A stretch of 38,688 nt of DNA from a virus (IMGVR_UViG_2703718837_000002); one strand, 5' to 3'; counted from the stretch's first letter, positions 10,945 to 31,160 are shown. Program-made: numbers and translations. The notes: generated by a model from the sequence alone, not told the origin.

Positions 10945-10993
10945 GTTTGACAGCGGGTCGCAGGTTGTTAAACCTACGAATGAGGCCGTAACT

Positions 10994-12303: not shown

Positions 12304-12315
12304 TTAAATTAAAAA

Positions 12316-12333
12316 GGCGGCCTTTCGGCCGCC
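12316..12333. terminator. Hairpin GGCGGCC-TTTC-GGCCGCC (also present after Ant B at 25815-25832)
   Basis: Perfect 7-bp stem; A-run upstream gives a T-run on the minus strand, so it may terminate the convergent pro transcript. Confidence 0.45.
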
Positions 12334-12347
12334 AGTGATTTCAGATA

Positions 12348-12378: not shown

Positions 12379-15109
<2,731 letters not shown>

Positions 15110-15175
15110 TTAATTAGAATAATTCACATCGTGTTTGAACGGAATTTAACACTAGTCACTTGTTAAGGATTACCA

Positions 15176-18100: not shown

Positions 18101-21100
18101 GAACAATACGCCCGCATTCCGCTACGTGATGACACCGTAGATGAGCATGCACAGGATATGCTTTATGACTTCGTTGCTGCCGGGCGCGTAGCCAGCGCAA
18201 TGGACTCCGACTCCCACCGCAAAGAGGCCGCGCGTCGCCGGGTATTGTCGGAGTATTCAGATACCGGTACCGAAAAAGCAGAGAAGTATCCGTACTTTGA
18301 GGATATGGGCTTCGACAGCGTGATTGCTGACGAAGGCCACAACTACCGCAATAGCTATAAAAATGGTCGCGAAGCGTCACAGCTGGCCTATCTGCCCACC
18401 AGCGCGGTGGCGCAATCGGCGCGAGATATGGCAATCAAAAACGCGTACCTGATGAAAAAGAATGGTGGGCGTGGACCGGTTCTCCTGACTGCAACGCCAG
18501 TCGTTAACACCCCGATCGATGCATACAACATGCTTTCTCATGTTCTGCCGAAGGAATACTGGCAGAAGATGGGGATCTACGGTCCTGATGACTTCGTTAA
18601 ATTCTTCGGCAAGACCAGGCTGGAAACGGTACAGAAAATTAGCGGTGAAGTTGAAGAAAAAATGGCGCTGGTGGGCTTTGAAAACCTTGATGCGCTGCGC
18701 GGTATATTCCATCGCTGGGTAACGCTTAAAACGGCGGAAGACGTTAAGGATACCGTGGAGATCCCGGAGCTGGACGAACACCAGCAGGATGCACCACTTA
18801 CTGAAGAACAACTGGCGGCGTATGAAGAATTGCGTCAGCAGGCGGAAGCGGCGGCCAAAGCCAACAATGGCGTAACGACCTCGGTCAATGAAGACGGCGT
18901 GATTGAGCACGAGAAAGCCCGTCCGATCTTCTCAATAATCAGGGATATGGACCGCGTATGTACTGACATGGACCTGTACTATCGCCGGATCACCTATCGT
19001 TTCCTGCCGGAGTATGCCGATGCGGTGCAGCAGCTGGCGGACAGTTTGCCTAAACAAGCCACCAGCGAAGACGACGACAGTGATGATTCAATCACGCAGC
19101 AATCGCAATACTCCCTGATAGATAAGGGCGAGTTTATTCAGTTGCAGGTTCCGGAAGCGTTCGAGCAGGAAGTGAATAAGCGCCTGGCCAGGTTTGGCAT
19201 TGACGAACAGACCGTAACTCACCCCGTTACGCCCAAATACGCGAAGCTGATTGCCACGCTGAAGGAGTTTTTCCCGGAAGGTAAGCAAATCATCTTCACG
19301 GACGAAAAAACGCAGCACCAGAAGCTCAAGCGCATTATCTGCAATGCTCTTAACCTTGAACCTTCAAAGGTGGGGATCCTGAATGCTCAGACGGTTGCCG
19401 AGGCAGGTAAAACCGGTAAGAAACTGAAAGCGGTTAAACCGCCGAAAGAGTTACCGGATGAACCAACAGATGCACAGATAGCGAAATACAACGAGCAAAT
19501 GGCTCTGTATGACGCCTATATCGCGCAGCAAAATGAAATGTCGTTGGGCGGTCTGGAAAAGATTGCAGCCGACTTCCAGGAGGGCCGGACTCCGATCATC
19601 ATCTGCAACAAAAAGGCAGAGGTGGGTATCAACCTGCATCGAGGAACGACTGACATCCATCATCTGACGTTGCCGTGGACTCCAGCCAGTATCGCACAAC
19701 GTAACGGTCGCGGTGCCCGAGTTGGCTCCAACCGTGCAAGCGTTCGCGTTCACTACTACTGCGGCAAGGGTTCTTTCGATGAATACCGACTGAAGACGCT
19801 GAAGCGTAAAGCAGGCTGGATCTCCGATATCCTCCGTTCAGATAAGTCAGAAATGGAGAACGCCGACGCCAACGATATGATCGAAATGCAGATGTATACC
19901 GCTAAGGATGATGGCGAACGTCTGGCAATGATGCAGGTTCAAATGGATAAGGCGAAAGCCGCGCAACGCGCTCGCCAGAAAGAACAGGCTACTATCGACC
20001 TTCAGAACTACATCAAGGCGCAGCACGCAGCTGGCGAGGATGTGGAGGTACTTACCGCTGAATTAGAGCGAAGCAAAGCGGAACTTGAAAAGACCACCGC
20101 CGACGTCGACAAATTCAAACAAGCAGCAATGGCCAAAGCAGCTGATAACGCAGACTGGAAGGCACGTTGGGGGAGTGTCCATAACGCTGACCGTATGTTG
20201 TTAGCTCGATATCGCGCTTCGTTAAAAAATGCTATTCAACAGAAGGCTAATATCTCTCAAGCCATCTCCCGCTATGAGAAATTATTGAACCGTACCCAGA
20301 AGGCCGCGACGGATATCAAACGCCTGCGCCCGCTGGTGGAGGATGCAATAAATAAAGGCATTCTGGATGTTGATCCTGACCTGGTTAACCATGCGAGTGA
20401 GTTCCTTGTTATCGGCGATCGCTCATGGCGTGTAGGCCAATACTATGATTGTGCCGGTGATATCGTCCGCATTAAGTCTCTGGACTTCGACAGCCAGCGC
20501 GCAGACGTGGAGATCATCTTTACCTTCAAAGGCACAAAATCTGGTAACTGGGATGTGAAGACGCTGGATAAACAGGTGGATGTAACTCCCGATGAAGATG
20601 CTGTTATGCAGAAAATCAGTGGTGGCGTCTCCATCGCCGGGATTAACGACATCATTTCCTGTGACGATTTCTACCGTTTCCAGCAGCGCGGCATGATCAA
20701 AATCACTGACTCGTACGGCGTTCAGACTACAGAGTCAGGCTATAGCATTGATTTTGTTGGTACCTATACGGACCCACTGAAGCATGCGGTTTACCCGGAT
20801 CGCCGTGACGGCGCGCTGAAGTCGTCAATTGCAAAATGGGTGCTTGGTATGATGTCTGAAGGGAATAACCGCCAGGTCCGTTTGGCAGAAGTATTCCTGA
20901 CTGAACTGTTTGGCTCCAATTATGGCGATGTAATCGCGTCATATGGAGATACGCTATCCCCTGAAGCAATTCAGGAGAAAATAGCGGATGCGATCGCCAG
21001 AATGCCGGAGAAAACAAGCCAGGGGGCTACTCGTAACGGGGATTCTGAACTTGAGGTCACCAATGCCATTTTCGGTACCCATGAGTTCCGGGCGTCAGAT

Positions 21101-21943
21101 TATGAGATCACCACAGCACAGTTTGGCACCATTGGCATTTACAGCAATAAAGACGAGATCAAGCAGGCAATGGACGCAGCAAGCGCGCGCATCGCAGCAG
21201 AACGGGAAGCCAATCTGAATCATGCAGTCGCCGCGCTGACTCAATCGTGGGTAACAGCAATCAGGGAGGCCGCCACCACAGGGAAAATCACACCGGCAAT
21301 TGCGGATGTCGTAAACGACGGCTCTAAATTTATGGATGCCTATCAAATGGATGCGGTGCAGTTGCCATCAGCCTATGGCCAACTCAGCTATCGCATGACC
21401 TACAATCTGGTATCAATGTTTTCCGACCTTGCCATCCTTGGGCTGGTGGACCTTAACGAGGTTACGCCGGAATTGCTCAGCATTCGCAATAATCATGTGG
21501 AGATATTGCACAGAATTAACACGGTACTTGCCGGGCGCACCGATGAAGAAAAACAGGCAGACGCTGATCGGATAAACCTGGCCCTAGGCAACATCACGGA
21601 GGAAGAAATTGCCGCCAGAAACGAGAAACAAGAAGAGTTATCATCAATACAGGGTGATGCCACCAGCATAGCTCAGTCTCTTGGTCTGAATTATCGCGTA
21701 TCCACCGCCGACCTGAAGATGATGTACGCACCAAAATTCGCCGCTGGCGAGGTATTTGGGCTTCAGGAGGCGTCCGGCATGAAAGGCATTCTTTTCCGTG
21801 CGAAAGACGCAATCAAGGAAAAATTCGGCGCTCGCTGGCTGCCAGCGAAGGCGAAGAACAGCGATTTCCCAGGCAACTGGTGGATTATCGAGACAAAACA
21901 CAACGTGGCGGACGTTCTGGCCGTCATCCAACAATACGCATAA
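15176..21943 (+). CDS. darB: DarB, giant anti-restriction protein (2255 aa): N6-adenine methyltransferase-like N-terminus plus SF2 helicase core
   Basis: NVPF (NPPF-type motif IV) at 15713-15724; Walker A GTGLGKTT near 17748-17771; DEGH motif II at 18329-18340; length matches P1 DarB. Confidence 0.85.
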   Translation: MNKLSMGVFRCSSVSEILKYIRAITFRRAPIKYGVEKVEGKSYDRLRREANQKAIDLLNSLVDGATLTDEQRQILAGYTGEGGIGGSVSEYYTPKPIAEGVWEIMKLYGADVGNTLEPSAGTGVFNETKPVGTVMTATEISSVSGRINQLLHPEDSVQISPFEQLAISTPNDSFDHVVGNVPFGGRDNTRNIDKPYAEETDMGSYFMLRMLDKIKPGGFMCVIVPPSIVSGSNMKRLRLRLSRKAEFLGAHRLPTGTFDANGTSTVVDVVLMRKHPAEMAEKIPLVDESTLESANVLWPTFISGKWFEKDGRRFVHGTQEKGFQGRIEVRADGQIDNQALKAKLIHRFESRIDWSLLDMAEPSPTADVVDEGEMRLINGVWQKYAGGRWIEADAGKELKIDAASYGADSWEALQRNLTTTEGRLGMTFTQMANVRDKYTTSISDDMVQLVDWINSQPEKYRERLYRGAMIGRMLIEYQDMKAAGHSAEQIEQQRLSLVSRLQAEIDRFGNPGRGPIAKLSGSGARAWFAFRGAIKLDGTISDELTGKLVTHDSSASYDSTSYQDTLRYLYSDLTRDPIQLDDFRLAFTGELPASDEELLNLLASTPGIAVSPYGGIVPFARATSGDINEIVAPKQEFLATLPDGPVKNNVLNQLAAIEEKRIKTPAENIRFKLNSRWFDRSVILEFLQENGYPDLRYVQSVQLEGDEMVSDTYHGGDGLFVGHRYGVVQRKDKETGEIRYEWDRKSGENATGFPAQLEKYLNGARIGGKDSATANGYREQMALLEDQFNKWIKTHDRYDELVAKYNDVFNSNIPYEHSGDPLGLKGLSGKRQPFDYQNSEVRRLSEDGRGILGFGTGLGKTTTALALEAFNYENGRSTRTAYVVPKSVLENWYYEAKEFLSEEAFSNYLFVGLDVLMDGDQIRQVPVLDENGKPVLGADGTPLMRDALKLADEATITARMNAIPHSNYRAVVFTKEQYARIPLRDDTVDEHAQDMLYDFVAAGRVASAMDSDSHRKEAARRRVLSEYSDTGTEKAEKYPYFEDMGFDSVIADEGHNYRNSYKNGREASQLAYLPTSAVAQSARDMAIKNAYLMKKNGGRGPVLLTATPVVNTPIDAYNMLSHVLPKEYWQKMGIYGPDDFVKFFGKTRLETVQKISGEVEEKMALVGFENLDALRGIFHRWVTLKTAEDVKDTVEIPELDEHQQDAPLTEEQLAAYEELRQQAEAAAKANNGVTTSVNEDGVIEHEKARPIFSIIRDMDRVCTDMDLYYRRITYRFLPEYADAVQQLADSLPKQATSEDDDSDDSITQQSQYSLIDKGEFIQLQVPEAFEQEVNKRLARFGIDEQTVTHPVTPKYAKLIATLKEFFPEGKQIIFTDEKTQHQKLKRIICNALNLEPSKVGILNAQTVAEAGKTGKKLKAVKPPKELPDEPTDAQIAKYNEQMALYDAYIAQQNEMSLGGLEKIAADFQEGRTPIIICNKKAEVGINLHRGTTDIHHLTLPWTPASIAQRNGRGARVGSNRASVRVHYYCGKGSFDEYRLKTLKRKAGWISDILRSDKSEMENADANDMIEMQMYTAKDDGERLAMMQVQMDKAKAAQRARQKEQATIDLQNYIKAQHAAGEDVEVLTAELERSKAELEKTTADVDKFKQAAMAKAADNADWKARWGSVHNADRMLLARYRASLKNAIQQKANISQAISRYEKLLNRTQKAATDIKRLRPLVEDAINKGILDVDPDLVNHASEFLVIGDRSWRVGQYYDCAGDIVRIKSLDFDSQRADVEIIFTFKGTKSGNWDVKTLDKQVDVTPDEDAVMQKISGGVSIAGINDIISCDDFYRFQQRGMIKITDSYGVQTTESGYSIDFVGTYTDPLKHAVYPDRRDGALKSSIAKWVLGMMSEGNNRQVRLAEVFLTELFGSNYGDVIASYGDTLSPEAIQEKIADAIARMPEKTSQGATRNGDSELEVTNAIFGTHEFRASDYEITTAQFGTIGIYSNKDEIKQAMDAASARIAAEREANLNHAVAALTQSWVTAIREAATTGKITPAIADVVNDGSKFMDAYQMDAVQLPSAYGQLSYRMTYNLVSMFSDLAILGLVDLNEVTPELLSIRNNHVEILHRINTVLAGRTDEEKQADADRINLALGNITEEEIAARNEKQEELSSIQGDATSIAQSLGLNYRVSTADLKMMYAPKFAAGEVFGLQEASGMKGILFRAKDAIKEKFGARWLPAKAKNSDFPGNWWIIETKHNVADVLAVIQQYA

Positions 21944-21976
21944 CAGGAGCGCCCGGTTCGCCGGGCGTCGCATAAT

Positions 21977-22417
21977 ATGGCCACACTATCTGATACAATA
22001 AAACCGAATAAAACATATCTTGAGGCGGTACTCCGTACAGCGTTGTTAGGAAAGACAGAAGACGAATACGTTGATTTCTTCCTGTCAGGGCTACGCGGGC
22101 GATTACTGAAAAATCCCCGCCTGTACCGCAGCTATGGTCCATACTGGCCGGAAATTAAAAAATTATTACTGGAGCGCGGTTATGGTAATTTCGGTCGTCT
22201 CGTTGACCGTGACGTTCGCAAAATTTATCGTTATGACCGCCCGGCGCTAACACTCATAGCCGCGACGCTCTACAGCCAGGAGCGTTTTGATAATGGTCAG
22301 ATATACTCAGCCTGGCATTTACTGCCAGTGCCTGAAGAAGTTGACGACCAGGACTATGAGTTTGAGTCTTACGATTTGGAAGTTGAAGCCTTGGCACAGG
22401 CTGGAGAGAAAACTTGA
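21977..22417 (+). CDS. ulx: Ulx-like protein (146 aa)
   Basis: Immediately downstream of darB; by position. Confidence 0.5.
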   Translation: MATLSDTIKPNKTYLEAVLRTALLGKTEDEYVDFFLSGLRGRLLKNPRLYRSYGPYWPEIKKLLLERGYGNFGRLVDRDVRKIYRYDRPALTLIAATLYSQERFDNGQIYSAWHLLPVPEEVDDQDYEFESYDLEVEALAQAGEKT

Positions 22418-22662
22418 AAAAGCGATACTACACAGTAAAGCATGGGACGCTACGAGCATTACAAGAGTTTGCTGACAAGCATAACGTTGAGGTGCGCAGG
22501 GAAGGGGGAAGTAAAGCTCTGCGCATGTACCGTCCGGACGGGAAATGGCGTACGGTCGTCGATTTCAAAACTAACAGTGTTCCCCAAGGCGTCCGCGATC
22601 GGGCATTCGAAGAATGGGAGCAGATCATCATAGATAACGCATTGCTCCTTAATGCTGATTAA
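22414..22662 (+). CDS. lxc: Lxc-like small protein (82 aa)
   Basis: ATGA overlap with ulx; by position and size. Confidence 0.45.
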   Translation: MKKRYYTVKHGTLRALQEFADKHNVEVRREGGSKALRMYRPDGKWRTVVDFKTNSVPQGVRDRAFEEWEQIIIDNALLLNAD

Positions 22663-22670
22663 TGGTTTTG

Positions 22671-22710
22671 TTTCCCGGTATCGTATTATACCGGGAAATA
22701 TCTTTTTATA
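22671..22710 (+). terminator. Intrinsic terminator closing darB-ulx-lxc
   Basis: Stem TTTCCCGGTAT/ATACCGGGAAA with 6-nt loop followed by TATCTTTTTATA. Confidence 0.65.
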
Positions 22711-23109
22711 TTAACCCGCGGCTGCAATTAGTGCCGACCCAACCGCCAGTGTGGTGACAAGGCCTATAATGACGACTGTAGCTGTTACCCCACCTGCAAC
22801 AGCTGCTCCAGTCTTTGTTTTGGATAACTCTTTCTTTTCTAGAGAAATGATTTCACCCATAGGAATAGACTGGTTGTTAATACCATTGATATATTGTGGG
22901 GTAACGTTCGATACTGTCATTTCACCTTCGCTACCTGATTTTAACTTGTATTTAATTAGGTCACCAGCATATATCGGTGGCTCTGTTAAATAATAGGTAC
23001 TTCTTTCAAGGTTTTTTTGCTTTATGTTAACTCCTTGATAAGACTGACATCCACATAACACAAGTGATAAAATTAGCGTCATCAGTAAATTTCTTTTATT
23101 TTTTATCAT
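22711..23109 (-). CDS. Small envelope protein (about 132 aa): signal peptide with LCGC lipobox-like motif, C-terminal Gly/Ala-rich membrane anchor
   Basis: Strong AAGGAGAAGGAG RBS 8 nt before ATG at 23109 (the track's GTG start at 23118 is less likely); low GC; ends on the lxc terminator. A TTGACA with an imperfect -10 lies upstream. Confidence 0.6.
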   Translation of the reverse strand: MIKNKRNLLMTLILSLVLCGCQSYQGVNIKQKNLERSTYYLTEPPIYAGDLIKYKLKSGSEGEMTVSNVTPQYINGINNQSIPMGEIISLEKKELSKTKTGAAVAGGVTATVVIIGLVTTLAVGSALIAAAG

Positions 23110-23243
23110 TGTCTGCACTCCTTCTCCTTTTCTTTGTATAGCTAAAACAAATCATTTATTCTTGTCAAATAGTTTTTAGTTTGAGAGTGAGGTTTACGTG
23201 ACGATGCTCTAAAAGTTGCAGATAGCGGTAAAGATAATTTTAT

Positions 23244-23912
23244 TTACAATATGTTACCTTTTCCGGTAAGTATACCTTGCGGTACTTTTCTTTCCCCCAT
23301 AAGTTGAGTGGCATGAATGATATTAATAAATGACATTAGTTGTGATGAACTCTGATTCACATTTATCTTTCCAGCCATTGCCCTGATGTAGTCAGCGCTG
23401 GCAACGTTGTTGTATTCCGTTGCGAAGCAGCATAACAACGTCAGAACGTGCTCTGTCGTTATTTCACTCCAGTTGATGTTGAAAAATTCATCGCCTTTTT
23501 TGTCGTGTTCGGAATCGAAGATGCTTTGGTGGAGGATATATTTGCCGGATTCCTTGCGCGGTAACTTTATCGCTTTCTGGCGTTCCAATTCCTTGTAAAT
23601 CTGCATTGCTTCAATCAGTACCGGTCTGCCGTTCATGAAGGGATCACGCAACCTTACACGCTGGCCAACTCGACCGGTAATAAAGCTGTTTTCCTCTTCC
23701 ACCAGCACGATAAAACCCTTTTCCTCTTTTTCTCGCAATTCGCGCAGCAGCTGGAGTTCCATATCGCGGCGGCGCTCAGGGTAGCTGGTCCGCTCAGCCA
23801 TTATCAGCTCATTGTTGATCCATGCAGCAGTCATTGACGCCGGTTTGCCGACGCTCATTGAAACAACGCATATTTTCTTATCCATAGCGCCCCTACAAAA
23901 AAGAAAAGCCAC
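23244..23912 (-). CDS. Hypothetical protein (213-222 aa) with a charged coiled-coil-like segment
   Basis: Maximal ORF; more likely start is MDKKICVV at 23885; no assignable domain; low GC. Confidence 0.5.
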   Translation of the reverse strand: MAFLFCRGAMDKKICVVSMSVGKPASMTAAWINNELIMAERTSYPERRRDMELQLLRELREKEEKGFIVLVEEENSFITGRVGQRVRLRDPFMNGRPVLIEAMQIYKELERQKAIKLPRKESGKYILHQSIFDSEHDKKGDEFFNINWSEITTEHVLTLLCCFATEYNNVASADYIRAMAGKINVNQSSSQLMSFINIIHATQLMGERKVPQGILTGKGNIL

Positions 23913-24144
23913 CAGCGGCGGCTTAGCAAAACAACTGAAGGTAGCGCCCGGTACTCAGACTGTGCCGTCCATGGAATATTTGAAAAGGGATCCATCCGTA
24001 CCGGGCGTGTGATGATTCTGACTCAAGTCACTTGTCAGTTGTCAATTATTTCAGATTAAAAATAATATATTTATTAGTGCATACAATTAAAACAATAAGT
24101 GTGCACATTGCAACCTCGGAGAGGAAACATTCAACCAGATTGTT

Positions 24145-24161
24145 ATTGCTCTAATAAATTT
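24145..24161 (+). promoter_or_regulatory. C1 operator (perfect 17-mer)
   Basis: ATTGCTCTAATAAATTT. Confidence 0.75.
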
Positions 24162-24346
24162 GATTTATTGAAACAAATAAACTACTATTGGACGCCAGAC
24201 TATTGATCTTCCTGTTGTTCAGGCTTATAGTTCCTACGTCATAGCAAATTCTGCGACCGGGTTTAGCAGCCTGAATGTACATGCGGACAACCGCAGATTT
24301 CCGATATTGCGGTATTTTTATGTCCGTAAAACCGCGTTACGCCCGA

Positions 24347-24429
24347 ATTATGGTGGGGCGTGATGGGGAGGCTTCGGCCTGCTGGTTTCATGTACGCCAG
24401 TCTGCTAACCCCGTCACGTCCTGCCACCT
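24347..24429 (+). ncRNA. c4-like antisense RNA (module B); boundaries approximate
   Basis: Same scaffold as A, but core elements CATGTAC (24389-24395) and CTGCTAA (24403-24409) complement GTACATG and TTAGCAG at the B target sites (24262-24283 and 24431-24470). Confidence 0.5.
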
Positions 24430-24478
24430 GTTTAGCAGCGGGTAGCAGGTTGTTAAACCTGTACATGAGGCCGTAACT

Positions 24479-24700
24479 ATGGTTAATGCCAATCCTTGCG
24501 CACGCCCTGAATTTATCTGGCGCTTCTATTCTTGTCAAAAACGTCACTATCACTTCGTTATCGCACCAACAGAAGATGAGGCACGTTCTCAGCTTCCGGA
24601 TGCTCCCTGCATTTTCTCCGCCCGCTTTTCTACCGATTCGCGCAATTCTCTCAGTTACTGGTGCCTCCCTGTTAACGCTTCGGCTCAGGAGGGGCTATGA
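24479..24700 (+). CDS. Icd-like small protein (73 aa)
   Basis: Paralog of the module A icd-like ORF; GAGG RBS overlapped by the antisense target. Confidence 0.6.
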   Translation: MVNANPCARPEFIWRFYSCQKRHYHFVIAPTEDEARSQLPDAPCIFSARFSTDSRNSLSYWCLPVNASAQEGL

Positions 24701-25809
24701 GAACGTCATTAGTCACCCGTGAAGAGATGATCGAGGCAATTGAACAGCACACTGCCTGTATCAGTACCAGGGATATACCAGGTGTTATTGCCAACTACTT
24801 CATGATCACCAAACAACTTTACCGGAGAAAGGACAAGAACGCGGTTCACCGCATTCTGCTAACCGATATCCGTGAATACCTGCTCGAACAGGGTCATCTG
24901 AATTATGCAACCGTCGCAGCCGAAGCACGCAAGGAGGCACACAGAATGAAAGCAACTAACGTTAAATCAGAAAAAATTCATGCACCTTCAGTTCAGGAAT
25001 CAGAGCTGGTGGTTGTTCAGAATCAGCCTGATGAAATTCCCGTTCTGGAATGGCAGGGAGTACGTGTCGTGACAACCGAAACTCTTGCTAGAGGGTATGG
25101 GACCGAAACTAATAACATCAAAGTTAACTATACGCGTAATGCTGATCGCTTTGAGGAAGGTAAACATTACTTTCTACTAACTGGTTCAAAATTAAAAGAA
25201 TTGAAGGACAAGGTTACTCAAAGTAACTTAGTCGCACCGCGAGCAAAGCACCTCACTCTCTGGACGGAACGCGGCGCAGCCCGCCACGCTAAAATGATCG
25301 AAACCGATCAGGCATGGGCATTCTTTGAAAAACTGGAAGACAGCTACTTCCGACAAAAAGAACAGCAACCGGTTGCAATCCCCCAGACGCTTCCAGAAGC
25401 CCTGCGCCTGGCTGCCGAACTGGCTGAACAAAAGCAACTTCTGGAACAGAAAGCCCACCAGCTAAATCAGCAGCTGGTGGCCGCAGCCCCCAAAGTCGAT
25501 TTTGCCGACCGGGTATCAGTGGCCAAGGGGATCCTGATTGGGAATTTTGCAAAGGTTGTTGGACTTAAGCAAAACGCGCTGTTTGCCTGGTTACGGGAGA
25601 ACGGCATCCTGATAGCGTCCGGCGGACGTAAAAATGTGCCGTTCCAGCAATACATCAACGCCGGGTATTTTTCTGTGAAAGAAGTGGTGCTGGATGATGA
25701 AGATGGCTATCAGATACGACTGACGCCCCAGTTAACGGGGAAAGGCCAGCAGTGGTTGACGCGTAAACTGCTCGATGCTGGCTTGTTAAAACCGGTGGCG
25801 GCTGAGTGA
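24697..25809 (+). CDS. Ant-like antirepressor paralog B (370 aa)
   Basis: ATGA-coupled to the icd-like ORF; Bro-N/KilA-C-like architecture. Confidence 0.7.
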   Translation: MRTSLVTREEMIEAIEQHTACISTRDIPGVIANYFMITKQLYRRKDKNAVHRILLTDIREYLLEQGHLNYATVAAEARKEAHRMKATNVKSEKIHAPSVQESELVVVQNQPDEIPVLEWQGVRVVTTETLARGYGTETNNIKVNYTRNADRFEEGKHYFLLTGSKLKELKDKVTQSNLVAPRAKHLTLWTERGAARHAKMIETDQAWAFFEKLEDSYFRQKEQQPVAIPQTLPEALRLAAELAEQKQLLEQKAHQLNQQLVAAAPKVDFADRVSVAKGILIGNFAKVVGLKQNALFAWLRENGILIASGGRKNVPFQQYINAGYFSVKEVVLDDEDGYQIRLTPQLTGKGQQWLTRKLLDAGLLKPVAAE

Positions 25810-25956
25810 TTAAAAAAGGCGGCCTTTCGGCCGCCAATGATGTCACGGAGTCTGTAATAGCAATGTCTTTGTAGTTGACTAATTATATAAATAAATTATA
25901 GCAATTATATGTGGTTTGCTTATCGGGAATCACATTTCCTCACTTCAGTACCTATG

Positions 25957-26043
25957 TGCTATACTCCTTTTTGATTGATTGATTGGATGCGGAACACAAA
26001 CCCGCTCTTTTGTGCAGCCTGGCTCCTTGCCAGGCTTTTTTTA
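25957..26043 (+). ncRNA. Candidate small RNA: extended -10 promoter to intrinsic terminator, about 70 nt
   Basis: TGcTATACT at 25957-25965; terminator stem GCCTGGC/GCCAGGC (26017-26035) plus T7; contains a TTGA x3 tract; 3' end overlaps the convergent 103-aa ORF stop. Confidence 0.3.
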
Positions 26044-26352
26044 TTTCATCATGGAAGCTGTTAACGCTTTGGACCTTGCTGAACTGATTGAAAGGACATT
26101 GTTAACCTTACCCAAGAGTTCGCCAAACTCAGACATCACTTTAGCAAAACCACGCCGTGCTTCTTCCTCGGTGGCATTCATCACGAAATGTTCAGCACTA
26201 CGCATACTTTTGACAGGGAACGCAACGGATATTGAGTCAATATCAGGCATTCTATCGCTCAGCTTTACAGTGACAATGACGGCTGGCGACTGAATATTAG
26301 TGCTTACAGACAGCACTACATATTTTACGTCGATGTTGAAATCCTTTCTCAT
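26041..26352 (-). CDS. Small protein (103 aa) downstream of cre
   Basis: ORF preceded by a C1 operator-like site; function unknown. Confidence 0.45.
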   Translation of the reverse strand: MRKDFNIDVKYVVLSVSTNIQSPAVIVTVKLSDRMPDIDSISVAFPVKSMRSAEHFVMNATEEEARRGFAKVMSEFGELLGKVNNVLSISSARSKALTASMMK

Positions 26353-26368
26353 ATGTCACCATAAATAT

Positions 26369-26385
26369 CAAATAATTAGAGCAAT
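26369..26385 (-). promoter_or_regulatory. C1 operator-like site (3 mismatches)
   Basis: CAAATAATTAGAGCAAT between the cre stop and the 103-aa ORF start. Confidence 0.35.
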
Positions 26386-26402
26386 CATTTGCACGTTAAA
26401 GG

Positions 26403-27434
26403 CTAATCGCCATCTTCCAGCAGGCGCACCATTGCCCCTGTTTCACTATCCAGGTTACGGATATAGTTCATGACAATATTTACGTTGGTCCAGCCACCAG
26501 CTTGCATGATCTCCGGTATTGAAACTCCGGCGCGGGCCATATCTCGCGCGGCTCCGACACGGGCACTGTGTCCAGACCAGGCCAGGTACCTCTGGCCAGA
26601 GTCATCCTTAGCCCCGTAAATCAATCGGTGAATTGCTTCAAAAATCCCTTCCAGGGCGCGAGTTGATAGCTGGCTGGTGGATGATGGCGCGGCAACACCA
26701 TTTTTTCTGACCCGGCAAAACAGGTAGTTATTCGGATCATCAGCTACACCAGAGACAGAAATCCATCGCTCGACCAGTTTAGTTACCCCCAGGCTAAGTG
26801 CCTTCTCTACACCTGCGGTGCTAACCAGCGTTTTCGTTCTGCCAATATGGATTAACATTCTCCCACCGTCAGTACGTGAGATATCTTTAACCCTGATCCT
26901 GGAAATTTCGGCTATACGTAACAGGGTGTTATAAGCAATCCCCAGAAATGCCAGATTACGTATATCCTGGCAGCGATCGCTATTTTCCATGAGTGAACGA
27001 ACCTGGTCGAAATCAGTGCGTTCGAACGCTAGTGCCTGTTTTGCACGTTCACCGGCATCAACGTTTTCTTTTCGGATCCGCCGCATGACCAGTGAAACAG
27101 CATTGCTGTCACTTGGTCGTGGCAGCCCGGACCGACGATGAAGCATGTTTAGCTGGCCCAAATGTTGCTGGATAGTTTTCACAGCCAGACCACGCGCCTG
27201 AAGATATAGAAGGTAATCGCGAACATCTTCAGGTTCTGCGGGAAACCATTTCCGGTTATTCAACTTGCACCATGCCGCCCACGACCGGCAAACGGACAGA
27301 AGCATTTTCCAGGTATGCTCAGAAAACGCCTGGCGATCCCTGAACATGTCCATCAGATTCTTGCGAGCCTCATCACTCGTTGCATCGACCGGTAATGCAG
27401 GCAAATTTTGGTGTACGGTCAGTAAATTGGACAT
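26403..27434 (-). CDS. cre: Cre site-specific tyrosine recombinase (343 aa)
   Basis: Near-identical over full length to Cre as I recall it, with about four substitutions; catalytic region ...RYLAWSGHSARVGAARDMARAG...; loxP 415 bp upstream. Confidence 0.97.
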   Translation of the reverse strand: MSNLLTVHQNLPALPVDATSDEARKNLMDMFRDRQAFSEHTWKMLLSVCRSWAAWCKLNNRKWFPAEPEDVRDYLLYLQARGLAVKTIQQHLGQLNMLHRRSGLPRPSDSNAVSLVMRRIRKENVDAGERAKQALAFERTDFDQVRSLMENSDRCQDIRNLAFLGIAYNTLLRIAEISRIRVKDISRTDGGRMLIHIGRTKTLVSTAGVEKALSLGVTKLVERWISVSGVADDPNNYLFCRVRKNGVAAPSSTSQLSTRALEGIFEAIHRLIYGAKDDSGQRYLAWSGHSARVGAARDMARAGVSIPEIMQAGGWTNVNIVMNYIRNLDSETGAMVRLLEDGD

Positions 27435-27441
27435 TTAACAC

Positions 27442-27663
27442 TCAGATAATGGTTTTAAGTAAAGTGTACAGGATCGGCTCTGCCTTTACCTGTTTATGGT
27501 TCTCGTCATAGAAACGCCAGCGACCGCGCGTGCGTTCTATTTTCTCTTCACCGCGCGATAATGACAGTTGACAACTATCACGATCAAACCCTTTTGCCCG
27601 CCAGTAACCACGGTTTTTCTCAAGCTCAATATGAGTGGACACTTTAGCAGCTGAATATCCCAT
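27442..27663 (-). CDS. Small ORF (73 aa) between loxP and cre; coding status uncertain
   Basis: Same strand as cre and immediately upstream; no recognisable motif. Confidence 0.25.
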   Translation of the reverse strand: MGYSAAKVSTHIELEKNRGYWRAKGFDRDSCQLSLSRGEEKIERTRGRWRFYDENHKQVKAEPILYTLLKTII

Positions 27664-27852
27664 TTTTCACCTCTGATTGATTGGTGGTGCTAAGTGCGCT
27701 ACGCGAAATCTGGAGCACTAACACTGCCAACATTTCGCAGATTTTACGTAGCGCAACCTTGATCAAATGATCAAGTGATCACTATTTGAGCTGATAAGGT
27801 ATTGAACTGTATGGATTTACAGGTAAATTAATTATGTTCAATAACCCTTAAT

Positions 27853-27886
27853 ATAACTTCGTATAATGTATGCTATACGAAGTTAT
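27853..27886. other. loxP: loxP recombination site
   Basis: Exact ATAACTTCGTATA-ATGTATGC-TATACGAAGTTAT. Confidence 0.98.
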
Positions 27887-27929
27887 TAGGTCTGAAGAGG
27901 AGTTTACGTCCAGCTGCGCATAAAAATCA

Positions 27930-27946
27930 AGAATTATTAGAGCAAT
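27930..27946 (-). promoter_or_regulatory. C1 operator-like site (2 mismatches)
   Basis: AGAATTATTAGAGCAAT. Confidence 0.45.
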
Positions 27947-28005
27947 AAATTTTGAGAGAAAAATCCCACTCCACCAGCCAAAAACTGGATTGTTTTTCAT
28001 AGTTG

Positions 28006-28034
28006 TTTGACAATTGCTCTAATAAATTATAGTT
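28006..28034 (+). promoter_or_regulatory. Sigma70-type promoter with embedded C1 operator (P99-like), reading toward coi-c1
   Basis: TTGACA (28006-28011), 17-nt spacer containing ATTGCTCTAATAAATTA (28013-28029), then TATAGT (28029-28034). Confidence 0.65.
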
Positions 28035-28267
28035 TTGCCGCCGTTTCGTAATACGACTTTGGATTCACTATTTAATGTGTCTTCAGCGTTGTAGAGCGGC
28101 TCAGAAGGAAATGAGCAAACAGGGAAACCTTATACAACGGCATTACAGCTATGCATTGCTCATCTTACACACAGCGCAATGTTGTTAGATTACCCCAGCA
28201 TGGATCATGGGTGAAACAGTAGGTCAGAGCTTCAGGCTCTGTGTTGTCAATACAGTGAGGCATAATT

Positions 28268-28477
28268 ATGGCTTTCATTCCACCAACCATCGACGACGTT
28301 AGACATTGCTCTAACGCTTTATCTGTAGACCCCGCCGAAACCGACGCTGCCCGCGCCATTGCTGAACACTACTCAAAGATATCCAATCAGGAGTACCGCA
28401 TCACCCAAGACGACCTGGATGATCTCACTGACACAATCGAATATCTCATGGCCACTAACCAGCCAGACTCACAATAA
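28268..28477 (+). CDS. coi: Coi-like C1 inactivator (69 aa)
   Basis: 69-aa ORF immediately upstream of c1 on the same strand, as in P1 immC. Confidence 0.65.
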   Translation: MAFIPPTIDDVRHCSNALSVDPAETDAARAIAEHYSKISNQEYRITQDDLDDLTDTIEYLMATNQPDSQ

Positions 28478-28523
28478 ATGCACTAATAAATCTATTATTT
28501 TCGTTGGATCCTTCTATAATGGT

Positions 28524-28564
28524 GGCCAACAACTCCCAGTGTAATCCGCTGTGAGTTGTTGGCC
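28524..28564 (+). promoter_or_regulatory. Perfect 12-bp inverted repeat in the coi-c1 spacer
   Basis: GGCCAACAACTC-N17-GAGTTGTTGGCC; TATAAT at 28515-28520 just upstream; GGAGGAGG RBS of c1 just downstream. Confidence 0.4.
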
Positions 28565-28587
28565 ATGTCAATTCTGGAGGAGGATCA

Positions 28588-29439
28588 ATGATAAATTATG
28601 TCTACGGCGAACAACTGTACCAGGAGTTCGTCAGCTTCAGGGATCTCTTTCTAAAAAAAGCTGTTGCACGCGCCCAACACGTTGATGCCGCCAGCGACGG
28701 TCGTCCTGTTCGCCCGGTTGTCGTTCTGCCGTTCAAAGAAACGGACAGCATTCAGGCTGAAATTGATAAATGGACTTTAATGGCGCGGGAACTGGAACAG
28801 TACCCAGACCTCAATATCCCAAAGACTATTTTATATCCAGTGCCTAACATCCTTCGCGGTGTGCGTAAGGTTACAACTTATCAGACAGAAGCTGTGAACA
28901 GCGTCAACATGACCGCTGGCCGCATTATTCATCTGATTGATAAGGACATTCGCATCCAGAAAAGCGCGGGGATCAATGAGCACAGTGCGAAATACATAGA
29001 GAACCTGGAAGCAACAAAAGAGCTAATGAAGCAGTACCCGGAGGATGAAAAATTCCGTATGCGTGTACACGGCTTTAGCGAAACAATGCTGCGCGTCCAT
29101 TACATTTCCAGTAGCCCTAACTACAATGATGGTAAATCAGTTAGTTACCATGTGCCGCTGTGTGGTGTGTTTATCTGCGATGAAACTCTCCGTGATGGAA
29201 TCATCATCAACGGTGAATTCGAGAAAGCAAAATTTAGCCTTTATGACTCTATAGAACCGATCATCTGCGACCGCTGGCCGCAGGCAAAAATATATCGCCT
29301 GGCAGATATTGAAAATGTAAAAAAACAAATTGCCATCACTCGCGAAGAGAAAAAGGTCAAATCAGCCGCATCAGTTACGCGCAGCCGTAAAACCAAGAAG
29401 GGGCAGCCAGTAAACGACAACCCCGAAAGCGCGCAATAA
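28588..29439 (+). CDS. c1: C1 repressor of lytic functions (283 aa)
   Basis: Starts MINYVYGEQLYQEFVSFRDLF, 283 aa, matching P1 C1; its operators are scattered across the window. Confidence 0.93.
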   Translation: MINYVYGEQLYQEFVSFRDLFLKKAVARAQHVDAASDGRPVRPVVVLPFKETDSIQAEIDKWTLMARELEQYPDLNIPKTILYPVPNILRGVRKVTTYQTEAVNSVNMTAGRIIHLIDKDIRIQKSAGINEHSAKYIENLEATKELMKQYPEDEKFRMRVHGFSETMLRVHYISSSPNYNDGKSVSYHVPLCGVFICDETLRDGIIINGEFEKAKFSLYDSIEPIICDRWPQAKIYRLADIENVKKQIAITREEKKVKSAASVTRSRKTKKGQPVNDNPESAQ

Positions 29440-29443
29440 ATTA

Positions 29444-29470
29444 TGCCCGGCATCAACCGGGCATTCTTCC
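29444..29470 (+). terminator. Intrinsic terminator after c1
   Basis: Stem TGCCCGG/CCGGGCA with 6-nt loop followed by a T-rich tract. Confidence 0.5.
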
Positions 29471-29471
29471 A

Positions 29472-30584
29472 TTATTCAGCCGCCACCGGTTTTAACAAGC
29501 CAGCATCGAGCAGTTTACGCGTCAACCACTGCTGGCCTTTACCCGTTAATTGGGGCGTCAGCCGTATCTGGTAGCCATTTTCATCATCCAGCACCACTTC
29601 TTTCACCGTGAAATACCCCGCGTTGATGTACTGCTGGAACGGCACATTTTTACGTCCACCGGACGCTATCAGGATGCCGTTCTCCCGTAACCAGACAAAC
29701 AGCGCGTTTTGCTTAAGTCCAACAACCTTTGCAAAATTCCCAATCAGGATCCCTTTAGCTACTGATACCCGGTCGGCAAAATCGACTTTAGGAGCGGCGG
29801 CCACCAGCTGCTGATTTAGCTGGTGGGCTTTCTGTTCCAGAAGTTGCTTTTGTTCAGCCAGCTCGGCAGCCAGACGCAGGGCTTCTGGAAGCGTCTGGGG
29901 GATTGCGATCGGTTGCTGTTCTTTTTGTCGGAAGTAGTTGTCTTCCAGTTTTTCAAAGAATGCCCATGCTTCATTTGTGTCCACGATCTTAGACATGCGT
30001 GCAGCGCCGCGCTCTGTCCAGAGTGTAAGGCTTCTGGCGTTCTTACCAACAGAGTAACTTCCGGTTACTCTGTTCTTAAATTCTCTTAATTTTAAACCAG
30101 TTAGAAGAAAGTAATGCTTACCTTCTTCAAAGCGGTCAAGGTTGCGAGACAAATTGTTGCGAATATTGGCTTCATCGACCCCATACCCTCTAGCAAGAGT
30201 TTCGGTTGTCACGACACGTACTCCCTGCCATTCCAGAACGGGAATTTCATCCGGCTGATTCTGAACAACCACCAGCTCTGATTCCTGAACTGAAGGTGCA
30301 TAAATTTTTTCTGATTTAACGTTAGTTGCTTTCATTCTGTGTGCCTCCTTGCGTGCTTCGGCTGCGACGGTTGCGTAATTCAGATGACCCTGTTCGAGCA
30401 GGTATTCACGGATATCGGTTAGCAGAATGCGGTGAACCGCGTGTTTGTCCTTTCTCCGGTAAAGTTGTTTGGTGATCATGAAGTAGTTGGCAATAACGCC
30501 CGGTATATCCTTGGTACTGATACAGGCAGTGTGCTGTTCAATTGCCTCGATCATCTCTTCACGGGTGACTAATGACGTTCTCAT
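29472..30584 (-). CDS. Ant-like antirepressor paralog C (370 aa)
   Basis: ATGA-coupled to the icd-like ORF; full-length paralog of A and B. Confidence 0.7.
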   Translation of the reverse strand: MRTSLVTREEMIEAIEQHTACISTKDIPGVIANYFMITKQLYRRKDKHAVHRILLTDIREYLLEQGHLNYATVAAEARKEAHRMKATNVKSEKIYAPSVQESELVVVQNQPDEIPVLEWQGVRVVTTETLARGYGVDEANIRNNLSRNLDRFEEGKHYFLLTGLKLREFKNRVTGSYSVGKNARSLTLWTERGAARMSKIVDTNEAWAFFEKLEDNYFRQKEQQPIAIPQTLPEALRLAAELAEQKQLLEQKAHQLNQQLVAAAPKVDFADRVSVAKGILIGNFAKVVGLKQNALFVWLRENGILIASGGRKNVPFQQYINAGYFTVKEVVLDDENGYQIRLTPQLTGKGQQWLTRKLLDAGLLKPVAAE

Positions 30585-30802
30585 AGTCCCTCCTGAGCAG
30601 AAGCGTTAACAGGGAGGCACCAGTAACTGAGAGAGTTGCGCGAATCAGTGGAAAAGCGGGCAGAGAAAATGCAGGGAGCGTCAGGAAGCTGAGAACGGGC
30701 CTCATCTTCTGTCGGTGCAATAACGAAGTGATAGTGACGTTTCTGGCAGGAATAGAAGCGCCAGATGAATTCAGGATGAGTTGGGGTAGGGACAGTAGCC
30801 AT
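30581..30802 (-). CDS. Icd-like small protein (73 aa) with a distinct N-terminus (MATVPTPTHPEFIW...)
   Basis: AAAGGAGG RBS; first nine residues differ from A and B, the rest is conserved. Confidence 0.6.
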   Translation of the reverse strand: MATVPTPTHPEFIWRFYSCQKRHYHFVIAPTEDEARSQLPDAPCIFSARFSTDSRNSLSYWCLPVNASAQEGL

Positions 30803-30857
30803 AATGGCAGCCTCCTTTGACTAAGTTAAGGAGCTACCGCGTGAGGTCTCAATCTCA

Positions 30858-30930
30858 ATGGCGGTAGCACTGACTGGGTTGAGACTACCGGCGTCAAAGG
30901 GAACCGGCCTGCCTTTCGGCAGCCCAGCCA
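30858..30930 (-). ncRNA. c4-like antisense RNA (module C); boundaries approximate
   Basis: Minus-strand GAAA-capped hairpin (30908-30925), then CCCTTTGAC (30893-30901) and GTCTCAA (30879-30885), complementary to GTCAAAGG(AGG) at the RBS (30811-30821) and TTGAGAC (within 30845-30859); the same two target motifs recur upstream at 31018-31044. Confidence 0.4.
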
Positions 30931-31142
30931 GCACTACCATTGATTTCGGAGCTAAACGCTACGTATGGCTGTGCGATGGCATGACACAAAAAAAAGACGC
31001 TTTCGGCGTCTGTGTCGCCTTTGACATTATTCGGGGTCTCAATCCCGGCACCCGTTTTAATGAGGTGCCTGATAAGCATAAACCGAAAATGCCTCAAGGC
31101 GCAAGAGGTCAGGTTCAATGTAACATCGGCAGTTAAAAAACA

Positions 31143-31160
31143 CAATTTATTAGAGCAAAT
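31143..31160 (-). promoter_or_regulatory. C1 operator-like site at the 5' edge of module C
   Basis: Minus strand reads ATTTGCTCTAATAAATTG. Confidence 0.55.

What the first reader, a model, noticed from the sequence alone, without database searches (positions are those of the whole stretch)
24139..31160. Long inverted and direct repeats flank key loci and predict recombination-driven rearrangement
Modules B (+) and C (-) are inverted repeats of about 1.3 kb bracketing the 3.6-kb cre-loxP-coi-c1 segment, so homologous recombination would invert immC and the lox site relative to the rest of the genome. Modules A and B are direct repeats about 13.5 kb apart bracketing pro-prt-darB-ulx-lxc and the cargo genes, so recombination would delete or circularise that block.
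Basis: inference. Interest (0 to 1): 0.55.

Follow-up and report, generated by a model that had tools for sequence, protein, structure and literature searches.

The report
Three paralogous antirepressor immunity modules
The long repeats are real, but they are three functional copies of the phage P1 "immI" antirepressor switch, each with its own antisense-RNA specificity, and none of the predicted inversions or deletions is seen in hundreds of related complete plasmids.

Summary
The window is a P1-like phage-plasmid. The repeats exist as described: A 10647-12346 (+), B 24143-25845 (+) and C 29461-31159 (-). B and C are inverted around a 3.6-kb c8-cre-cra-loxP-coi-c1 segment. A and B are direct repeats 13.5 kb apart. 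They are not inert repeats. Each is a complete immI-type operon: C1 operator, a1/b1 leader, C4 antisense RNA, a2/b2 targets, icd, and nested ant1/ant2. All ORFs are intact and under purifying selection. Each C4 matches only its own targets, so the three modules carry three distinct seed specificities, more different from one another than P1 is from P7. The copies are old paralogues (86-89% identity, longest perfect runs 75-134 bp). The predicted rearrangements are not found. Synthetic junction queries gave 0 of ~700 P1-like records with the B×C inversion, against 43 plasmids and 30 E. coli genomes that carry both modules in the parental order. The A×B deletion and A×C inversion junctions also gave 0. 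There is no within-genome homogenisation, only patchy historical exchange of segments between copies. Rare isomers within a population cannot be excluded. The finding is structurally correct, but its significance lies in stacked immunity modules rather than in rearrangement.

The parts
10647..12346 (+). Module A: a complete immI-type cassette inserted between the lysis genes (lyz/lydD-like) and pro. It replaces 19 bp of the empty site.
   Evidence: Filled versus empty site comparison with three relatives; repeat families D1-D5; alignment A1. Present at this position in only 11 of 780 plasmid records.
10661..10677 (+). C1 operator, a perfect ATTGCTCTAATAAATTT match, at the head of module A. A second operator-like site overlaps it in inverted orientation at 10677-10693 (-).
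   Evidence: 12 operator-like sites in the window against 0.22 expected. It aligns with the annotated P1 operator Oc4/Op51.
10741..10799 (+). Module A leader with the a1 (10779-10785, TTGACAG) and b1 (10793-10799, ACGAATG) target copies.
   Evidence: Rfam c4-a1b1 RF03163, 57.1 bits against a gathering score of 46.7; motif positions.
10861..10946 (+). C4 antisense RNA of module A. Its seeds are the complements of TTGACAG and ACGAATG.
   Evidence: Rfam RF01695, 69.8 bits against a gathering score of 45; exact complements lie inside C4.
10947..10982 (+). Module A targets a2 (10947-10953) and b2 (10976-10982). b2 abuts the icd Shine-Dalgarno sequence.
   Evidence: positions correspond to the a2/b2 sites annotated in P1.
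10994..11215 (+). icd-like ORF of module A (73 aa). Its stop codon overlaps the ant1 start codon (ATGA).
   Evidence: annotated 'Icd-like' in orthologues.
11212..12303 (+). ant1-like gene of module A (363 aa, ORF6N + KilAC). An in-frame ant2-like start at 11461 is preceded by AAGGAGG.
   Evidence: Pfam PF10543 and PF03374; internal start; dN/dS 0.15-0.18 against the paralogues.
12379..23885 (.). Block between A and B: pro (12379-13428 -), prt (13391-15100 -), darB (15176-21943 +), ulx (21977-22417 +), lxc (22414-22662 +), a hypothetical ORF (22711-23118 -) and mat (23244-23885 -).
   Evidence: ORF list; annotation of collinear relatives; tblastn.
24143..25845 (+). Module B: a complete immI-type cassette between mat and c8, in the place where P1 has ref.
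   Evidence: It is ~79% identical to the canonical P1/P7 c4-icd-ant1/2.
24145..24161 (+). C1 operator (perfect consensus) at the head of module B.
24225..24283 (+). Module B leader with a1 (24263-24269, TTAGCAG) and b1 (24277-24283, GTACATG).
   Evidence: Rfam RF03163, 47.5 bits against a gathering score of 46.7.
24346..24431 (+). C4 antisense RNA of module B, followed by a2 (24432-24438) and b2 (24461-24467).
   Evidence: Rfam RF01695, 70.8 bits.
24479..24700 (+). icd-like ORF of module B (73 aa).
24697..25809 (+). ant1-like gene of module B (370 aa, ORF6N + KilAC), with an ant2-like start at 24946.
25846..29460 (.). Segment between the inverted arms: c8 (26041-26352 -), cre (26403-27434 -), cra (27442-27663 -), loxP (27853-27886), C1 operators (27930-27946 and 28013-28029), coi (28268-28477 +) and c1 (28588-29439 +).
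29472..30584 (-). ant1-like gene of module C (370 aa, ORF6N + KilAC), with an ant2-like start at 30335. Its stop codon lies 33 nt from the c1 stop codon (convergent genes).
30581..30802 (-). icd-like ORF of module C (73 aa), with a different N-terminus (MATVPTPTHPEF...).
30857..30944 (-). C4 antisense RNA of module C, a variant whose seeds complement TTGAGAC and GTCAAAG. a2 lies at 30852-30846 and b2 at 30821-30815.
   Evidence: Rfam RF01695, 75.4 bits.
30990..31068 (-). isrK-like leader RNA of module C. It carries module C's own a1 (31042-31036) and b1 (31025-31019) copies and ends in an intrinsic-terminator-like hairpin followed by a T run.
   Evidence: Rfam RF01394, 59.8 bits against a gathering score of 50.
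31143..31159 (-). C1 operator-like site (TTTGCTCTAATAAATTG, 2 mismatches) at the head of module C, next to the pacB end at 31163.

Best explanation
The repeats are three paralogous, functional copies of the P1/P7 immI antirepressor operon, sitting at three variable spots of a P1-like phage-plasmid: lyz|pro, mat|c8 (the ref position) and c1|pacB.

Shown here: each copy has a C1 operator at its head and conserved promoter hexamers. It has a leader with a1/b1 sites and a C4 antisense RNA whose two seeds are exactly complementary to that copy's own a1/b1 and a2/b2 sites, with b2 abutting the icd ribosome-binding site. It also has an icd ORF whose stop overlaps the ant1 start, and an ant1 gene with a nested ant2 start.

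Inferred by analogy with P1: in a lysogen, C1 and the cognate C4 RNA keep icd and ant silent. In a cell that lacks the cognate C4, Ant is made and inactivates C1. Because the three copies have three different seed pairs, they should act as three independent locks and keys of heteroimmunity.

The DNA repetition is therefore a by-product of gene paralogy, not a rearrangement device. The copies are old (dS 0.25-0.46), diverged (86-89% identity) and individually maintained by selection. Crossovers between them that would invert cre-lox-c1 or delete pro-prt-darB are rare enough, or harmful enough, that no such isomer is fixed in any sequenced relative. Only short, patchy exchanges between family members are visible.
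For: Identity of the modules:
- Pfam ORF6N + KilAC in all three ant genes.
- Rfam C4 hits of 69.8-75.4 bits against a gathering score of 45, plus c4-a1b1 and isrK hits.
- ~79% nucleotide identity to canonical P1/P7 c4-icd-ant1/2, and a feature-by-feature match to the curated P1 annotation.
- Perfect C1 operators.

Seed specificity:
- In each module, each target heptamer occurs exactly twice and its exact complement occurs once, inside C4.
- In register, cognate pairs are 7+7 Watson-Crick. Non-cognate pairs within the window reach 3-4 of 7 at the b site, against 5 of 7 for the heteroimmune pair P1/P7.

Function:
- All ORFs are intact. dN/dS is 0.07-0.26 for ant and 0.01-0.34 for icd. The nested ant2 start with its Shine-Dalgarno sequence is conserved.

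Stability:
- No rearrangement junction was found in ~700 plasmid records or 699 E. coli genomes, against 43 and 30 at-risk parental records. The positive control gave 550 of 704.
- Every fetched relative that carries modules at these positions keeps them in the same orientation.
- Copies group by position (93-95% against 87-89%), with no within-genome homogenisation (permutation p 0.38-0.82).

Prevalence:
- 708 of 5,426 complete E. coli genomes carry at least one module, up to 7 places per genome. pO26_98E11_1 has four.
- Extra icd-ant copies in RD-1 and between pacB and c1 have been noted in passing in the literature (PMC6906374).
Against: No experiment was possible. Expression, processing of C4, Ant-C1 binding and the orthogonality of the three C4 RNAs are inferred from sequence and from P1/P7 precedent.

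The a seeds of A (P1 type) and B (P7 type) differ by only two bases, one of which can still form a G-U pair, so some cross-talk at the a site is possible.

The middle (ORF6N) domain of these Ant proteins is absent from P1 Ant1, so their target could differ from C1.

Consensus assemblies cannot reveal minority isomers. The at-risk records are not phylogenetically independent. Only 11 or fewer records carry the A-position copy, so the test for the A×B deletion has little power.
Confidence: 0.75

Rival explanations
1. One reading: the repeats are active recombination substrates. The prophage population would then contain substantial fractions of an isomer with cre-loxP-coi-c1 inverted (B×C) and of a deletion or circle that removes pro-prt-darB-ulx-lxc (A×B).
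For: Arms of 1.3-1.7 kb with perfect runs of 75-134 bp exceed the minimal processing segment for RecA-dependent recombination (established knowledge). Mosaic similarity and the low B-C dS in the ant N-terminal part show that copies have exchanged sequence at some time. IS-mediated inversions of P1-like backbones are documented (PMC6906374).
Against: There were 0 inversion junctions against 43 (plasmids) and 30 (E. coli genomes) parental records that carry both modules. There were 0 deletion and 0 A×C junctions. Divergence of 6-14% strongly depresses homologous recombination in mismatch-repair-proficient E. coli (established knowledge). There is no within-genome homogenisation. The A×B deletion would remove portal and protease, so it could persist only as a defective plasmid.
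Confidence: 0.1
2. The modules are recent copies of a mobile cassette (transposon-like, or a site-specifically inserted 'moron'), and the repeats reflect recent transposition within this genome.
For: A and B share the same cassette ends: about 10 nt before the operator on the left, and just after the terminator hairpin on the right. Family members occupy at least five different positions in P1-like elements.
Against: There is no transposase or integrase in the cassette, no terminal inverted repeats and no target-site duplication. At position A the cassette replaces 19 bp of the empty site. The copies differ by dS 0.25-0.46 and have different seeds, so they are not recent intragenomic duplicates. 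Positional orthologues in other plasmids are 93-100% identical.
Confidence: 0.1
3. The repeats are an assembly artefact: one antirepressor locus has been collapsed, duplicated or misplaced.
For: None specific.
Against: The three copies differ at 11-14% of positions and each has its own covarying C4/target set. Unique flanks join seamlessly to conserved P1 genes. Independent complete assemblies from other laboratories show the same layout, with A-position orthologues 99-100% identical.
Confidence: 0.01

Closest known systems
immI operon of phages P1 and P7 (Oc4/Op51, P51a/b, c4, icd, ant1/ant2)
   Same: The order and type of every element are the same: C1 operator over the upstream promoter, a1/b1 leader, C4 RNA (Rfam RF01695), a2/b2 with b2 at the icd ribosome-binding site, icd overlapping ant1, a nested ant2, and a C-terminal KilAC domain. 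Nucleotide identity is ~79%.
   Different: The modules lie at non-canonical positions rather than between sim and kilA-repL. There are three copies in 21 kb. The b seeds are new (ACGAATG, GTACATG, GTCAAAG) and C also has a new a seed. The middle of Ant is an ORF6N domain that P1 Ant1 lacks. Module C uses an isrK-type leader.
Extra icd-ant / ant insertions reported in P1-like plasmids (pSvP1 RD-1; pTZ20_1P and RCS47 between pacB and c1)
   Same: The positions are the same as modules B (RD-1, next to c8/mat) and C (c1|pacB). RCS47 ant is ~90% identical to module B's core.
   Different: Those reports list the genes as regions of difference. They do not analyse C4 specificity, copy number or repeat-mediated rearrangement. 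The A-position copy (lyz|pro) is rare (11 of 780 records).
Gifsy-1 IsrK-orf45-AnrP antirepressor control (Salmonella)
   Same: Module C's leader matches Rfam isrK above its gathering score and precedes a small ORF that is translationally coupled to an antirepressor gene, as described for IsrK/orf45/anrP.
   Different: Here the isrK-like RNA is followed by a bona fide C4 RNA and carries copies of that C4's targets. This suggests it acts as the a1/b1 element of a C4 circuit. The link to AntQ described in Gifsy-1 is absent.
Inverted-repeat flip-flop genomes and programmed invertible segments (P1 Cin/cix C segment, Mu Gin, yeast 2-micron FLP)
   Same: A unique segment is bracketed by inverted repeats.
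   Different: No recombinase acts on these repeats and the arms are only 89% identical. Only one orientation is seen in all sequenced relatives.

Membership tests
P1/P7 immI (c4-icd-ant) operon family | C1 operator overlapping the upstream promoter of the operon | tested here: met
   Perfect 17-mer at 10661-10677 and 24145-24161, and a 2-mismatch site at 31143-31159. These align with the annotated P1 Oc4.
P1/P7 immI (c4-icd-ant) operon family | C4 antisense RNA with the family's secondary structure | tested here: met
   Rfam RF01695 full-length hits of 69.8, 70.8 and 75.4 bits against a gathering score of 45.
P1/P7 immI (c4-icd-ant) operon family | Two C4 seeds complementary to a1/b1 upstream and a2/b2 downstream, with b2 at the icd ribosome-binding site | tested here: met
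   Exact complements in all three modules, with three-way covariation between modules.
P1/P7 immI (c4-icd-ant) operon family | icd ORF translationally coupled to ant1, and ant2 nested in frame | tested here: met
   icd of 73 aa whose stop overlaps the ant1 ATG (ATGA). In-frame ATG 83 codons downstream, preceded by AAGGAGG, in all three copies. This is sequence-level evidence only.
P1/P7 immI (c4-icd-ant) operon family | Ant protein homologous to P1 Ant1 over its whole length | tested here: not met
   The N-terminal ~150 codons and the KilAC C-terminus are homologous. The middle is an ORF6N domain that is not detected in P1 Ant1.
P1/P7 immI (c4-icd-ant) operon family | Ant1/Ant2 bind and inactivate the C1 repressor, and C4 represses in trans | not testable with these tools
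   Needs pull-down, reporter or superinfection assays.
P1/P7 immI (c4-icd-ant) operon family | Canonical genomic position between sim and kilA-repL | tested here: not met
   The modules lie at lyz|pro, mat|c8 and c1|pacB. The canonical locus lies outside the window.
Programmed or equilibrium DNA inversion systems | Both orientations of the bracketed segment occur among sequenced relatives | tested here: not met
   0 inverted against 43 (plasmids) and 30 (E. coli genomes) parental records.
Programmed or equilibrium DNA inversion systems | A dedicated recombinase with crossover sites at the repeat boundaries | tested here: not met
   The only recombinase in the segment is Cre, with a single loxP at 27853-27886. 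There is no recombinase gene in the modules.
Transposable element copies | Transposase gene, terminal inverted repeats and target-site duplication | tested here: not met
   The cassette encodes only C4, icd and ant. At the A site 19 bp are replaced, with no duplication.
Rfam isrK (RF01394) | Score at or above the gathering threshold over the full model | tested here: met
   59.8 bits against a gathering score of 50, model positions 1-77, at 31068-30990 (-).

The most novel reading that the evidence does not exclude
P1-like phage-plasmids stack several immI cassettes whose C4 seeds are mutually orthogonal and combinatorially reassorted (P1-type or P7-type a seed combined with new b seeds; alleles of the Ant middle domain swapped between positions). 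Together these form a multi-lock heteroimmunity 'barcode'. A superinfecting element would escape a resident's immunity unless the resident supplies every cognate C4. Recombination between the repeated cassettes would be the engine that creates new specificities, not a source of genome isomers.
Probability: 0.35. Interest if true: 0.6.

Novelty: new member of a known kind. Interest (0 to 1): 0.33.

Why it matters
For the finding as written, the result is mostly deflationary. The repeats do not appear to drive genome isomerisation, so cre-lox-c1 orientation and the pro-darB block can be treated as stable in this lineage.

What the repeats are is of moderate interest. Immunity between P1-type phage-plasmids, which spread resistance and virulence genes in Enterobacteriaceae, may be set by a variable number (1 to about 7 matching places per genome) of antisense-controlled antirepressor cassettes with distinct specificities. 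That would bear on which elements can coexist with, displace or induce one another. It also gives a directly testable 3x3 orthogonality prediction. Finally, it suggests that the Salmonella IsrK RNA family belongs to the same regulatory design as the a1/b1 leader of C4 systems.

Tried and rejected
1. Whole-region coverage as a count of plasmids with all three modules was rejected. The place-joining lets one module of the record satisfy several module parts of the query. Four '96-99% covered' relatives in fact lack the A copy.

2. A C4/target complementarity matrix using the best register anywhere in C4 with G-U pairs allowed (second part) was rejected as uninformative, because 5-7 of 7 arise by chance. 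It was replaced by the in-register matrix.

3. Concerted evolution (within-genome gene conversion) was tested by permuting genome labels within position classes. No signal was found.

4. The transposon-like mobility idea was tested at the A site and rejected.

5. The assembly-artefact idea was rejected on copy-specific covariation and independent assemblies.

6. Attempts to read Gilcrease & Casjens 2018 and Lobocka et al. 2004 failed because neither is held. Prior description of multi-immI genomes in those papers therefore could not be checked.

7. Two paper searches and one in-paper term search failed because terms were shorter than 3 characters.

Full report
**1. What the window is**

The region matches P1-group phages and phage-plasmids (Punavirus). 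cre, c1, pacA/pacB, darB and others are 91-97% identical to P1, P7, SJ46, RCS47 and many Escherichia, Shigella and Salmonella plasmids. The closest relatives for the rarest part are Escherichia albertii plasmids from cranes, at 99% identity.

**2.

The repeat finder finds direct families linking 10659-12343 to 24143-25845 with a spacing of ~13.5 kb. It also finds inverted pairs linking both of these to 29461-30775. A three-way alignment and a column-wise analysis give the following.
- A and B are alignable over ~1.7 kb.
- B and C are alignable over 1.34 kb (24479-25820 against 30802-29461), with 3,640 nt between the arms.
- Core identity is 86-89% overall. It is 91-94% in icd plus the ant N-terminal part, 62-76% in a 185-nt patch, and 87-92% in the ant C-terminal part.
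- The longest perfect runs are 78 nt (A/B), 134 nt (A/C) and 75 nt (B/C).

The bracketed 3.6-kb segment contains c8, cre, cra, an exact loxP (27853-27886), coi and c1. The A-B interval contains pro, prt, darB, ulx, lxc, one hypothetical ORF and mat.

**3. What the repeats are**

Each module encodes a 363-370 aa protein with ORF6N and KilAC antirepressor domains. Rfam finds a full-length C4 antisense RNA in each module, at 69.8-75.4 bits against a gathering score of 45. It also finds the c4-a1b1 leader in A and B, and an isrK-type RNA in C.

Module B is ~79% identical to the canonical c4-icd-ant1/2 operon of P1 and P7. I aligned the modules against the curated P1 record, and every annotated element has a counterpart:
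- the C1 operator: perfect consensus at 10661-10677 and 24145-24161, and two mismatches at 31143-31159 (12 operator-like sites in the window against 0.22 expected);
- the constitutive promoter hexamers;
- the a1/b1 sites, C4 and the a2/b2 sites;
- a 73-aa icd whose stop codon overlaps the ant1 start codon;
- an in-frame ant2-like start 83 codons into ant1, preceded by AAGGAGG.

**4. The three modules have three specificities**

In each module the two target heptamers occur exactly twice (a1/a2 and b1/b2), and their exact complements occur once, inside that module's C4.

| Source | a target | b target |
|---|---|---|
| Module A | TTGACAG | ACGAATG |
| Module B | TTAGCAG | GTACATG |
| Module C | TTGAGAC | GTCAAAG |
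| P1 | TTGACAG | GTTAGTG |
| P7 | TTAGCAG | GATTGTG |

In register, cognate pairs are 7+7 Watson-Crick. Non-cognate pairs within the window reach only 3-4 of 7 at the b site, whereas the classical heteroimmune pair P1/P7 reaches 5 of 7.

This three-way covariation is strong evidence that each copy is a self-contained, working antisense circuit. In C, the a1/b1 copies lie inside the isrK hit.

**5. The copies are old and selected**

dN/dS is 0.07-0.26 for ant and 0.01-0.34 for icd. dS between paralogues is 0.25-0.46 overall. They are therefore neither recent duplications nor decaying pseudogenes.

P1 Ant1 lacks the ORF6N middle domain. The variable patch (Ant residues ~134-200) lies in that domain.

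**6. Test of the predicted rearrangements**

I built ~3-kb synthetic queries whose two halves are co-oriented and within 2 kb of each other only in the predicted recombinant.

| Query | Collection | Records with the junction |
|---|---|---|
| B×C inversion (reverse-complemented cre + pacB) | plasmids | 0 of 703 |
| B×C inversion (same query) | E. coli genomes | 0 of 703 records / 699 genomes |
| Parental control (c1 + pacB, same geometry) | plasmids | 550 of 704, including records with a 1.7-kb module between the halves |
| A×B deletion | plasmids | 0 of 702 |
| A×C inversion | plasmids | 0 of 623 |

Records that carry both the B and C modules around cre-c1 in the parental order number 43 in the plasmid collection and 30 among E. 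coli genomes. The two sets overlap and are not phylogenetically independent.

The A-position copy exists in only 11 of 780 records, so the A×B and A×C tests have a small at-risk set. Every relative I fetched that carries modules at these positions keeps them in the same orientation despite different cargo between them.

If inversion were frequent and neutral, both orientations should be common. They are not.

**7. Do the copies recombine at all?**

I extracted 27 module copies from 12 elements and aligned them.
- Similarity follows position. Copies at the same position in different genomes are 93-95% identical, against 87-89% for different positions.
- Paralogues in the same genome are no more alike than paralogues from different genomes (permutation p 0.38-0.82). 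So there is no ongoing concerted evolution.
- The family is nevertheless mosaic. The variable-patch allele of win_A is found at position C in a Shigella plasmid, that of win_C at position A in p06-3542, and that of win_B at an lxc-proximal position in pMTY1886.
- In this window the B and C ant N-terminal segments are 98% identical, with dS 0.056 against 0.24-0.28 for A-B and A-C. This indicates one comparatively recent patch exchange.

These are conversion-like events without exchange of flanks.

**8. How the cassettes got there**

At position A the filled site differs from three empty sites by a clean 1,700-bp insertion (10647-12346) that replaces 19 bp. There is no target-site duplication and there are no terminal inverted repeats.

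A and B share the same cassette ends, from about 10 nt upstream of the operator to just after the terminator hairpin. The mechanism of placement is unexplained.

Family members occupy at least five positions in P1-like elements: canonical, lyz|pro, the RD-1/ref area (sometimes two copies), c1|pacB, and upstream of ban. Among 5,426 complete E. coli genomes, 708 carry at least one module (median 1, maximum 7 places per genome).

**9. Mechanism proposed**

Shown here: the anatomy, the covarying seeds, the intact and selected ORFs, and the stable arrangement.

Inferred from P1/P7 (GenBank annotation; reviews):
- C1 represses the upstream promoter.
- C4, made from the constitutive promoter, pairs with a2/b2, blocks icd translation and thereby blocks ant expression.
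- Without cognate C4, Ant1/Ant2 inactivate C1.

Further inference: with three seed types, this element carries three independent heteroimmunity determinants.

From established knowledge: 6-14% divergence strongly reduces RecA-dependent crossovers in mismatch-repair-proficient E. coli, which fits the absence of isomers. The A×B deletion would also remove the portal and the head protease.

**10. Comparison with what is known**

The immI operon, C4 antisense control and P1/P7 heteroimmunity are classical. Extra icd-ant genes in RD-1 and an ant gene between pacB and c1 have been listed as regions of difference (PMC6906374). A second c4-icd region was noted in a D6-like plasmid (PMC6799933).

I therefore rate this a new member, or set of members, of a known kind.

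**11. Verdict**

- The real significance is stacked, specificity-diverged antirepressor immunity cassettes.
- Interest is modest (0.33). The most novel reading that the evidence does not exclude is a combinatorial multi-lock heteroimmunity system diversified by exchange between cassettes. I give it a probability of about 0.35.

Noticed in passing
window 30990-31068 (-): The Rfam isrK hit inside module C carries exact copies of module C's own C4 target heptamers (TTGAGAC and GTCAAAG) and ends in a terminator hairpin. The isrK family may therefore be the a1/b1-type leader of a C4-variant circuit, parallel to Gifsy-1 IsrK-orf45-AnrP. Rfam does not place isrK in the C4 clan.
   Followed up: partly
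window 8311-8988 (-): A 225-aa ORF with a Tad2-like (Thoeris anti-defence 2) domain, Pfam E-value 1.6e-22. It is annotated DUF2829 in relatives and sits in the variable spot next to ssb.
   Followed up: no
window 10661-10693: Module A has two overlapping, inverted C1 operator-like sites (10661-10677 + and 10677-10693 -), possibly a bivalent operator. Module B keeps only the first. A similar operator-rich 40-nt sequence lies at 9680-9719 between ssb and lyz (inverted repeat I6).
   Followed up: partly
window 11618-11803, 25103-25288, 29993-30178: A 185-nt variable patch in the ORF6N domain of Ant (residues ~134-200) is only 62-76% identical between copies. Its alleles are 99-100% identical to copies at other positions in other plasmids, so it behaves like a swappable specificity cassette.
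   Followed up: partly
window 10647-12346 versus L006:1675-2005, L007:1490-1825 and L008:1680-2010: The A-position cassette is a clean 1,700-bp insertion that replaces 19 bp (GCGATAATAGTTAACGAGA) of the empty site, with no target duplication. A and B share the same cassette ends. The insertion mechanism is unexplained.
   Followed up: partly
L009 (NZ_CP128972.1) 12325-16956: pMTY1886 carries two immI-type modules in inverted orientation flanking mat in the RD-1 area, plus the C-position copy. This is another natural inverted-repeat configuration that could be checked for isomers.
   Followed up: no
L004/L005 (NZ_AP027182.1) 13640-14904, 53485-54815, 58486-59816, 85229-86481: pO26_98E11_1 has four icd-ant modules: canonical, B position, C position and upstream of dnaB/ban. 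Their seed pairs are reassorted: P1-a with P7-b, P7-a with GTACATG, a new pair, and P1-a with GTACATG.
   Followed up: partly
L012 (NZ_CP034163.1) about 10120-10260: The B-position module of p06-3542 has an internal deletion in icd while ant is intact. This is a possible natural test of the icd-ant coupling.
   Followed up: no
window 23885-26041: ref (recombination enhancement function) is absent, and module B occupies its place between mat and c8. res and mod are also absent between lxc and mat.
   Followed up: partly
window 12301-12343 and 25803-25845: The conserved GC hairpin at the 3' end of modules A and B (AAAAAGGCGGCCTTTCGGCCGCC) has its T run on the opposite strand. It would therefore also terminate the convergent pro transcript (module A) and the c8/cre transcript (module B).
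   Followed up: no
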